Below, in pieces: positions 63,001 through 64,000 of a stretch of 64,000 bases of DNA. The stretch comes from Fimbriosthenelais zetlandica. Taxonomy: Eukaryota. A program made the position numbers. The stretch's first letter is position 1. Each line of letters begins with the position of its first letter. The stretch is taken from contig OZ365116.1 of assembly GCA_977030845.1 (NCBI GenBank), forward strand, positions 18,476,001 to 18,540,000, given 5' to 3'.

Positions 63001-64000
63001 CATAAAATTTTAGATCTCAATTTTCTCCGTTGCTGGTGGATGAGCATCTAGGTCAGATTAAACCTAGGTTTTTCTGTGATATGAAGAATAAAATGAGACT
63101 CACACTCATCATGTGTTGTTGTGTATAGAGAACATCACCTACTCGGGATGTTTTACTCCATAGATTGGAGTGGGCTTCAGGCAGATATACATACCTATAC
63201 AATCAATGTACACACAATGAAGGAGGATAATTATGTAAGAATGCCTTGATATGATTCGAGTTTATATTTTCGATATATTCAGGGGGCGGGAAGTATGACT
63301 AGGGAAGGCATTTAAAATCATAATGAAATGATCCTCTATCGCTTCTTATTTCTGTGTTCCTGAAGTACCGATGACAACTCATAATAAAAGGACTACTTTA
63401 TATATATATTTGTTTGTGAATTTGTATGTTTCAGTAAGAAGTTAACAGCCTGATATCCAATATAAGTGAGAAGAGCATCATGGATTTATCATCAGCTGGG
63501 TTACGAACTGTCTTCATCATCTGTCTTATTTGTAAGTAGGCCTGTGTCAGAAATGTCTCATATCAGATAAGCCTACAGATACATATAAATATCATTCCAC
63601 AATTTCAATATATAATTTTCTACCACTCCGGCACTCAATATGAGATCGGTTTTTATCACGAGTCGATGTCTAATATAATATTAAAGAGGCAACATTAATG
63701 TCCTTGTGCATGATCTTTTTCATTTGCAGGCTTGATATCAATGGTACAAGGCCAAGGGCAAGGCGCTGGTAAGGCTGCTGGTGGGGTGCCTAACACGAGA
63801 CCTGGCCAAGGAGGTGACGACCCTAGCGCCATCTGGACCATTATATCTCAAACAGGACCATTTGCTGATCCCGACGACCCTGTTTGTAATCTCAGTCATC
63901 ACAACTGTTCCAGTCAAACACTCATGCCAGACCCTTCTAATTGTAATTTTTATCAAGAATGCGTCTTCAACCGTTGGATTAAAAGGCCCTGTATCCCTGG

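What the first reader, a model, noticed from the sequence alone, without database searches (positions are those of the whole stretch)
63480..64000. Inverted paralog has lost chitin-binding domain 1 through three separate frame-preserving deletions
Seen: relative to the first gene, exon 2 lacks 9 nt (VPG), then 267 nt (21688-21422), then 112 nt replaced by 7 nt, for a net 381 nt (127 aa). A 15-nt island from the deleted domain is retained (NPTAIC becomes DPSAIW), so its orphan Cys is now Trp. Splice sites, signal peptide and frame are intact, with both synonymous and non-synonymous changes. Inference: three independent in-frame events suggest selection for a functional receptor with altered chitin valency, i.e. 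a diversifying family.
Basis: partly seen in the sequence, partly recalled or inferred. Interest (0 to 1): 0.68.

Follow-up and report, generated by a model that had tools for sequence, protein, structure and literature searches.

The report
Duplicate receptor gene missing one chitin-binding domain
A young, inverted second copy of a chitin-binding-domain receptor gene starts at the end of the window and has lost its first chitin-binding module by in-frame deletions that look like sloppy DNA-break repair; whether the copy still works cannot be seen here.

Summary
Window 62828-64000 (+) is an inverted duplicate of 23148-21137 (-), with 39 mismatches in 1124 aligned bases. Compared with copy 1, exon 2 of copy 2 lacks 9 nt, then 267 nt, keeps a 16-nt island (15 of 16 identical), then has 112 nt replaced by 7 nt. 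The net loss is 381 nt. The lost part is a genuine CBM_14 domain (30.4 bits, cut-off 22.1) plus both linkers. Copy 1 is an adhesion GPCR with four CBM_14 domains, a mucin-like stalk, a GPS motif and a 7tm_2 core.

- The 7-nt filler repeats a sequence 20 nt downstream (chance about 1%). That is a repair signature, and Cys-to-Trp and Asn-to-Asp are junction products rather than substitutions.
- The two large gaps may be one complex event.
- All coding indels are multiples of 3, against 4 of 12 non-coding ones. This gives p of about 0.04 for three events, or 0.11 for two.
- pN/pS is 0.48 and is not distinguishable from 1.
- Copy 2 runs off the window, so its GPCR part, expression and function are unknown.

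This is ordinary domain loss in a young paralog.

The parts
62828..63479 (+). Copy 2: duplicated upstream region. Homology to copy 1 starts abruptly at 62828.
   Evidence: 62828-63243 matches 23148-22745 (9 mismatches in 400 aligned) and 63242-63479 matches 22246-22041 (11 in 206). No homology upstream of 62828.
63480..63531 (+). Copy 2 exon 1: ATG plus signal-peptide-like leader, 52 nt, ends in phase 1.
   Evidence: 2 mismatches in 52 against copy 1 (Ile to Thr; the last base G to T turns the split codon GGC into TGC).
63532..63729 (+). Copy 2 intron 1, GTAAGT ... TTTGCAG.
   Evidence: 5 mismatches in 196 aligned and 3 small indels against copy 1 intron 21988-21789.
63730..64000 (+). Copy 2 exon 2, partial. 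The frame is open to the window end. It ends inside the CBM_14 domain that corresponds to domain 2 of copy 1.
   Evidence: open frame, 3' open. (CBM_14, 18.1 bits, profile positions 1-31 of 53, cut by the window end). (63843-64000 is 97.5% identical to 21294-21137).
63806..63813 (+). Site of the 9-nt gap (Val-Pro-Gly of copy 1 missing). The deletion lies between two GGAG repeats.
   Evidence: and the sequence read directly.
63819..63820 (+). Junction of the 267-nt gap, with 1-nt (A) microhomology. It creates the GAC (Asp) codon.
63820..63835 (+). Retained 16-nt island from the end of domain 1 (the region of its last conserved Cys). 15 of 16 bases identical to copy 1 21422-21407.
   Evidence: 0 of 1000 shuffles reach 15 of 16.
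63836..63842 (+). 7-nt filler that replaces 112 nt of copy 1. With the preceding G it makes the TGG (Trp) codon.
63855..63862 (+). Probable template of the filler: the same 8-mer, 20 nt downstream. It is also present in copy 1 at 21282-21275.
   Evidence: random 7-mers found in the same 120 nt in 209 of 20000 trials; 8-mers in 39 of 20000.
21989..22040 (-). Copy 1 exon 1.
18990..21788 (-). Copy 1 exon 2: four CBM_14 domains, then about 480 aa of Ser/Thr/Pro-rich mucin-like sequence. A GTAAGC donor follows 18990.
   Evidence: open frame. (CBM_14, 4 stretches, 73.3 bits). (donor read by eye).
21388..21600 (-). Copy 1 CBM_14 domain 1, the module missing from copy 2.
   Evidence: 30.4 bits, cut-off 22.1. 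(8 Cys).
21423..21689 (-). The 267 nt of copy 1 that are absent from copy 2: Gly/Pro-rich linker plus most of domain 1.
21295..21406 (-). The 112 nt of copy 1 replaced by 7 nt in copy 2: end of domain 1 plus the Thr/Pro-rich linker.
22247..22746 (-). About 500 nt upstream of copy 1 with no counterpart in copy 2 (insertion in copy 1 or deletion in copy 2).
   Evidence: No second copy in the window.
15903..16091 (-). Copy 1 GPS-motif exon of the adhesion-GPCR part.
   Evidence: GPS, 58.5 bits, cut-off 22.5. (best solved match ADGRL3, E 1.8e-11).
14116..15566 (-). Copy 1 exons that encode the 7tm_2 core.
   Evidence: Four exon-sized frames match 7tm_2 profile positions 28-70, 73-122, 142-187 and 202-246, at 21.7-26.5 bits (cut-off 20.6).

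Best explanation
Copy 2 is a real, young, head-to-head (inverted) segmental duplicate of at least the promoter-proximal 650 nt, exon 1, intron 1 and the start of exon 2 of a neighbouring adhesion-GPCR gene. The extracellular part of that gene carries four peritrophin-A (CBM_14) domains and a mucin-like stalk.

After the duplication, copy 2 lost the whole first CBM_14 module together with both flanking linkers. The lesions look like DNA-repair products:
- A 9-nt slippage-type deletion between GGAG repeats.
- A 267-nt deletion with 1-nt microhomology.
- A 112-nt deletion patched with 7-8 nt copied from 20 nt downstream, which is a templated insertion as in polymerase-theta-type end joining (a recalled mechanism).

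The last two may be one complex event. The Cys-to-Trp and Asn-to-Asp changes are by-products of the junctions.

The outcome keeps the reading frame and leaves no unpaired cysteine. If the rest of the gene is intact, the protein would be the same receptor with three chitin-binding modules instead of four.

Shown: the duplication, the lesions, the filler's template, the domain identity and the receptor nature of copy 1. Inferred: the direction (loss in copy 2), the repair mechanism and the tolerance of the loss. Unknown: whether copy 2 is complete, expressed or under selection.

The confidence given is for the statement as worded: a real duplicate with repair-type loss of domain 1 and function left open.
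For: - Duplication: (39 mismatches in 1124 aligned bases; homology ends sharply at 62828/23148).
- Continuity: the window has no N, so the two copies lie on continuous sequence with about 41 kb of unique DNA between them.
- Lesions and island.
- Filler template.
- Domain 1 is a bona fide CBM_14. An island homologous to the end of that domain can only be a remnant, which gives the direction of change (inference).
- Copy 1 is an adhesion GPCR. The phase-1 donor after 18990 and the HRM-exon acceptor are in the same phase (read by eye).
Against: - Functional status is open. pN/pS is 0.48 from only 3 synonymous and 5 non-synonymous changes, not different from 1 (Fisher p 0.38).
- Exon divergence equals intron divergence.
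- At this divergence an open 107-codon frame has little weight. By my rough estimate, not computed in a call, neutral change would leave it open more often than not.
- The in-frame argument rests on 2-3 events.
- No outgroup was found, so the polarity of the 9-nt indel is unknown.
- 3.5% divergence is within the range of allelic variation in some very heterozygous invertebrates (recalled), so a collapsed or misplaced haplotype cannot be excluded from sequence alone.
Confidence: 0.8

Rival explanations
1. Copy 2 is a functional receptor whose loss of domain 1 was favoured by selection for altered chitin valency, as part of a diversifying family.
For: - All coding indels are in frame, against 4 of 12 non-coding ones.
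- No orphan cysteine is left.
- ATG, signal peptide and splice sites are intact.
- All 4 base changes in the visible part of domain 2 are non-synonymous.
Against: - p is only 0.037, or 0.11 if the two large gaps are one event.
- pN/pS is 0.48 and is not distinguishable from neutrality.
- Only two copies are in the window and no close relatives were found elsewhere.
- The junction signatures point to accidental repair.
- Selection to keep a frame open is not selection for the loss itself.
- The GPCR half of copy 2 is unseen.
Confidence: 0.25
2. Copy 2 is a decaying partial duplicate, a pseudogene or 5' gene fragment. The in-frame pattern is a coincidence.
For: - Exon divergence (2.5-3.8%) is no lower than intron divergence (2.6%) or far-upstream divergence (2.2%).
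- Two large deletions lie within 400 nt of coding sequence.
- Indel density is high along the duplicate, with 16 gaps in about 1.2 kb.
- Satellite and repeat DNA lies directly upstream at 60690-62442.
Against: There is no stop or frameshift in the 323 visible coding bases. All coding indels are multiples of 3. Regulatory and splice signals are retained.
Confidence: 0.3
3. It is an assembly artefact: an alternative haplotype of copy 1, carrying a deletion allele, placed in inverted orientation.
For: Overall substitution divergence is only 3.5%. The copy sits at the edge of what can be seen.
Against: - There is no N or gap in the window.
- About 41 kb of sequence lies between the copies with no other self-similarity to either copy's flanks.
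- Homology ends sharply about 650 nt upstream of the ATG instead of continuing into the flank.
- 16 indels, including one of about 500 nt, separate the copies.
Confidence: 0.1

Closest known systems
Adhesion GPCRs (class B2; best solved match ADGRL3/latrophilin-3)
   Same: Copy 1 has a GPS motif with the HLT cleavage-site sequence and a 7tm_2 core. It also has a weak HRM-like exon and a long Ser/Thr-rich stalk, with modular adhesion domains at the N-terminus.
   Different: - The N-terminal modules are CBM_14 chitin-binding domains.
- The one relative found with the GPS exon (Elysia chlorotica hypothetical protein, 51% identity over the GPS exon) has no CBM_14.
- 6 of 6 long CBM_14 hits scanned had no GPS or 7tm_2 (6 of the 150 listed).
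- For copy 2 the GPCR part is not visible at all.
Peritrophin-type multi-CBM_14 mucin-like proteins (insect peritrophins, 'tenascin'/'proteoglycan 4-like' annotations)
   Same: They have arrays of CBM_14 domains separated by Pro/Thr-rich linkers and followed by mucin-like sequence. They are the best HMMER hits to the N-terminal 470 aa. The number of domains varies widely among such proteins (1-16 in the silkworm, from the abstract of PMC7663561 as listed).
   Different: Identity is only 24-37% among the best 20. The named hits carry secreted-matrix-protein names, and none of the six scanned has a receptor part. The window's gene continues in phase into GPCR exons.
Deletion with templated insertion from microhomology-mediated / polymerase-theta end joining (recalled from the literature, no paper read here)
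   Same: A deletion junction carries a short filler identical to sequence a few tens of bases away. Microhomology at the other junction is minimal.
   Different: The mechanism is inferred from a scar only. The enzyme, timing and number of events cannot be tested from one sequence.

Membership tests
CBM_14 / peritrophin-A chitin-binding domain (PF01607) | Profile match above Pfam's gathering score, for the module lost from copy 2 (copy 1 domain 1) | tested here: met
   30.4 bits against a cut-off of 22.1, profile positions 6-53 of 53. Domains 2-4 score 38.9, 24.2 and 26.7 bits.
CBM_14 / peritrophin-A chitin-binding domain (PF01607) | Profile match above the gathering score for the first remaining domain of copy 2 | tested here: inconclusive
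   18.1 bits (cut-off 22.1), because the window ends at profile position 31 of 53. The stretch is 97.5% identical in DNA to copy 1 domain 2.
CBM_14 / peritrophin-A chitin-binding domain (PF01607) | Conserved cysteine framework (six Cys; recalled definition) | tested here: met
   each of copy 1 domains 1-3 has 8 Cys at closely similar spacing, and the longer domain 4 segment has 10. In copy 2 none of the 8 Cys of domain 1 remains.
CBM_14 / peritrophin-A chitin-binding domain (PF01607) | Actual binding of chitin | not testable with these tools
   Needs a pull-down or binding assay with expressed domains.
Adhesion GPCR (class B2) | GPS motif with the HL/T cleavage sequence (copy 1) | tested here: met
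   GPS 58.5 bits against 22.5. The translation shows the HLT sequence followed by NFAVL.
Adhesion GPCR (class B2) | Secretin-type seven-transmembrane core (copy 1) | tested here: met
   four exons match 7tm_2 positions 28-246 at 21.7-26.5 bits each (cut-off 20.6). The exon expected to hold TM1 gave no match at E up to 1.
Adhesion GPCR (class B2) | GAIN domain upstream of the GPS, and a hormone-receptor (HRM) domain (copy 1) | tested here: inconclusive
   HRM 16.4 bits (cut-off 26.2). Three candidate GAIN exons gave no Pfam match when searched exon by exon.
Adhesion GPCR (class B2) | Any of the above for copy 2 | not testable with these tools
   Copy 2 leaves the window after 271 nt of exon 2.
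End-joining deletion with templated insertion | Filler at the junction identical to nearby sequence, beyond chance | tested here: met
   the 7-mer, and the 8-mer with the preceding G, recur 20 nt downstream. Random k-mers do so in 209 of 20000 (7-mer) and 39 of 20000 (8-mer) trials.

The most novel reading that the evidence does not exclude
The two genes belong to a lineage-specific class of adhesion GPCRs that use peritrophin-type CBM_14 arrays on a mucin stalk to sense chitin or a chitin-like matrix (for example shell, radula, gut lining or fungal or prey surfaces). In this class, recent tandem or inverted duplicates vary the number of binding modules, and copy 2 is a working three-module variant. 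An adhesion GPCR with CBM_14 domains did not appear in the listings of five literature searches. It was also absent from the relatives I could scan.
Probability: 0.2. Interest if true: 0.55.

Novelty: new member of a known kind. Interest (0 to 1): 0.3.

Why it matters
If copy 2 is complete and expressed, the pair is a natural experiment on how the number of carbohydrate-binding modules tunes an adhesion GPCR. It would also be a clean example of domain loss by repair accidents that selection tolerated.

As seen here, it is mainly a well-documented case of an ordinary process: modular domain loss in a young duplicate. The more unusual item is the parent architecture, four CBM_14 domains and a mucin stalk on an adhesion GPCR. 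I found no description of that combination.

Tried and rejected
1. Finding the rest of copy 2, or annotated proteins of this genome.
   - Word-indexed protein search with the copy 2 exon-2 fragment, longer proteins: 20 candidates, none at E up to 0.001.
   - The same with the first 470 aa of copy 1 exon 2, longer proteins: 5047 candidates, none.
   - So no protein of this genome or a close relative is in that collection at 157-4695 aa.
2. Outgroup for the direction of change. An exhaustive HMMER search with the 470-aa N-terminus gave 219 hits at E up to 0.001, none at E up to 1e-30, with 24-37% identity among the best 20. The named ones among the 10 looked up are insect peritrophin-like proteins. 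There is no orthologue, so no outgroup test.
3. CBM_14 plus GPCR elsewhere. 6 of the 150 listed hits (the longest among the top-ranked) were scanned with Pfam, and 0 of 6 had GPS or 7tm_2. The GPS-exon search gave 1 hit from 5 candidates, without CBM_14.
4. More paralogs in the window. TBLASTN and self-BLASTN found only the two copies.
5. Other open frames of the window (7 tried) gave no Pfam match. My impression that 46090-46662 resembles a TRP channel is therefore unverified.
6. Haplotig or fold-back artefact: considered and thought unlikely (see rival explanations), but not testable without reads.
7. Reading the missing segments as introns of copy 1: rejected, because they encode a scoring CBM_14 domain.
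8. Not checked:
   - Genome contigs holds only bacteria and archaea and was not used.
   - Paper supplements were closed and not consulted.
   - No paper was read beyond the search listings.
All searches were exon by exon, so weakly conserved domains split over exons (GAIN, HRM) may be under-detected.

Full report
**What is there**

The window is eukaryotic, invertebrate-like DNA with no N. I do not take it for human.

The last 1.17 kb (62828-64000, + strand) is an inverted duplicate of 23148-21137 (- strand). BLASTN finds three colinear blocks: 62828-63243 with 23148-22745, 63242-63813 with 22246-21705, and 63843-64000 with 21294-21137. A global alignment over the whole duplicate has 39 mismatches in 1124 aligned positions and 16 gaps.

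Nothing else in the window resembles either copy. The two genes point away from each other, with about 41 kb between them. Homology stops abruptly about 650 nt upstream of copy 2's ATG.

**The parent gene (copy 1)**

- Exon 1 (22040-21989) encodes a signal-peptide-like leader.
- Intron 1 is 200 nt.
- Exon 2 is open from 21788 for about 2.8 kb. It encodes four CBM_14 (peritrophin-A) domains followed by about 480 aa of Ser/Thr/Pro-rich, mucin-like sequence.
- Searched one by one, each of the four domains passes Pfam's cut-off of 22.1 bits: 30.4, 38.9, 24.2 and 26.7 bits.
- A GTAAGC donor follows 18990 in phase 1. The next frame, a weak HRM match at 16.4 bits, accepts in the same phase (read by eye).
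- Further downstream on the same strand lie a GPS-motif exon and four exons covering 7tm_2 profile positions 28-246. The GPS exon scores 58.5 bits against 22.5, and its best solved relative is ADGRL3 at E 1.8e-11.

So 'receptor' is right for copy 1. It is an adhesion GPCR with a chitin-binding-domain array. This probably explains why the GAIN region gave no match.

**Check of the observation**

Landmarks of copy 2 are: ATG 63480; exon 1 63480-63531; GTAAGT donor at 63532; acceptor ending at 63729; exon 2 from 63730. The frame is open to 64000.

Relative to copy 1, exon 2 shows these changes:

| Change | Copy 1 | Copy 2 | Note |
|---|---|---|---|
| 9-nt gap | 21708-21700 | before 63810 | removes Val-Pro-Gly; lies between GGAG repeats |
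| 267-nt gap | 21689-21423 | 63819/63820 | 1-nt microhomology |
| 16-nt island | 21422-21407 | 63820-63835 | 15 of 16 bases identical |
| 112 nt replaced by 7 nt | 21406-21295 | 63836-63842 | filler |

The island is real homology. None of 1000 shuffles reached 15 of 16 matches, and the best reached 13.

The missing part comprises a Gly/Pro-rich linker, all of CBM_14 domain 1, and the Thr/Pro-rich linker behind it. All eight cysteines of that module are gone.

**What the junctions say**

The 7-nt filler is an exact copy of a sequence that starts 20 nt downstream, at 63855-63862 (the 8-mer that includes the G before the filler). The same sequence is present in copy 1 at 21282-21275. Random k-mers are found in the same 120 nt, on either strand, in 209 of 20000 trials for the 7-mer and 39 of 20000 for the 8-mer.

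A deletion patched with a short copy of nearby sequence is the known scar of error-prone end joining with templated insertion. I recall this mechanism and read no paper on it here.

Two things follow:
- The Cys-to-Trp change (TGT to TGG) and the Asn-to-Asp change are made by the junctions themselves. They are not separate substitutions. Only Thr-to-Ser inside the island is a base change.
- The island might be a second templated patch of one multi-step repair. In that case the 267-nt and 112-nt gaps are one event, not two. I cannot decide between one and two events from a single sequence.

**Evidence on selection**

- In non-coding sequence, 4 of 12 indels between the copies are multiples of 3.
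- If events are frame-blind, three in-frame events have p = (1/3)^3 = 0.037, and two have p = 0.11. This is suggestive and no more.
- Nei-Gojobori counts over the 98 shared whole codons give 3 synonymous changes (65.7 sites) and 5 non-synonymous changes (228.3 sites). pN/pS is 0.48 with Fisher p = 0.38. The split codon adds one more non-synonymous change (Gly to Cys, inside the leader).
- Mismatch rates are alike across classes: exon 1 3.8%, exon 2 3.3% and 2.5%, intron 2.6%, upstream 2.2% and 5.3%.

So there is weak evidence that frameshifts were not tolerated. There is no evidence for or against constraint on residues. Nothing separates 'loss favoured' from 'loss tolerated'.

**Relatives and literature**

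- No protein of this genome or a near relative was found.
- The exhaustive search gave only generic CBM_14 arrays at 24-37% identity among the best 20.
- Of the 10 hits looked up, 6 carried protein names, all from insects: peritrophin-like proteins under names such as 'tenascin' or 'proteoglycan 4-like'.
- 0 of the 6 long hits scanned have GPCR parts.
- The GPS exon found one protein, an Elysia chlorotica adhesion-type GPCR without CBM_14. This is only a weak hint that the window is molluscan.
- Five literature searches listed no paper on an adhesion GPCR with CBM_14 or peritrophin domains. I saw the listings and abstract starts only. That is not proof that none exists.

**Verdict**

The description is accurate, and the direction (loss in copy 2) is well founded. 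The mechanism is most likely one or two repair accidents plus a small slippage deletion in a young duplicate.

The adaptive reading is possible but unsupported. The rest of copy 2, its expression and its copy-number status lie outside what these tools can reach.

This is an ordinary kind of event in an uncommon-looking receptor gene.

Noticed in passing
window 11232-22040 (- strand): Copy 1 as a whole appears to be an adhesion GPCR. Its ectodomain is four CBM_14 domains plus a mucin-like stalk, and there is a 464-aa open frame (11232-12626) that could be its cytoplasmic tail. I found no description of this domain combination in five search listings, and no relative with it among those scanned.
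   Followed up: partly
window 19548-19733: A 45-nt tandem repeat, 4.1 copies at 97% match, lies inside the mucin-like part of copy 1 exon 2 (a repeated Ser/Thr/Pro/Glu 15-residue unit). It is likely length-polymorphic.
   Followed up: no
window 22247-22746: About 500 nt upstream of copy 1 have no counterpart in copy 2 and no second copy in the window. This may be a mobile-element insertion or a deletion in copy 2. Only a 2-nt ambiguity sits at the junction and no clear target-site duplication was seen.
   Followed up: partly
window 60690-61193 and 61891-62442: A 38-nt satellite (13.2 copies) and a pair of about 290-nt direct repeats (79% identical) lie directly upstream of the boundary of the duplicated segment. 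They could mark the breakpoint environment of the duplication.
   Followed up: no
window 4863-6422 (+), 36166-36699 (+), 46090-46662 (+), 54825-55298 (+): Long open frames (a Ser/Arg/Pro-rich frame of 519 aa, an acidic frame of 177 aa, a hydrophobic frame of 190 aa and a Pro-rich repeat frame) gave no Pfam match. Other genes probably lie between the two copies, but they were not identified.
   Followed up: partly
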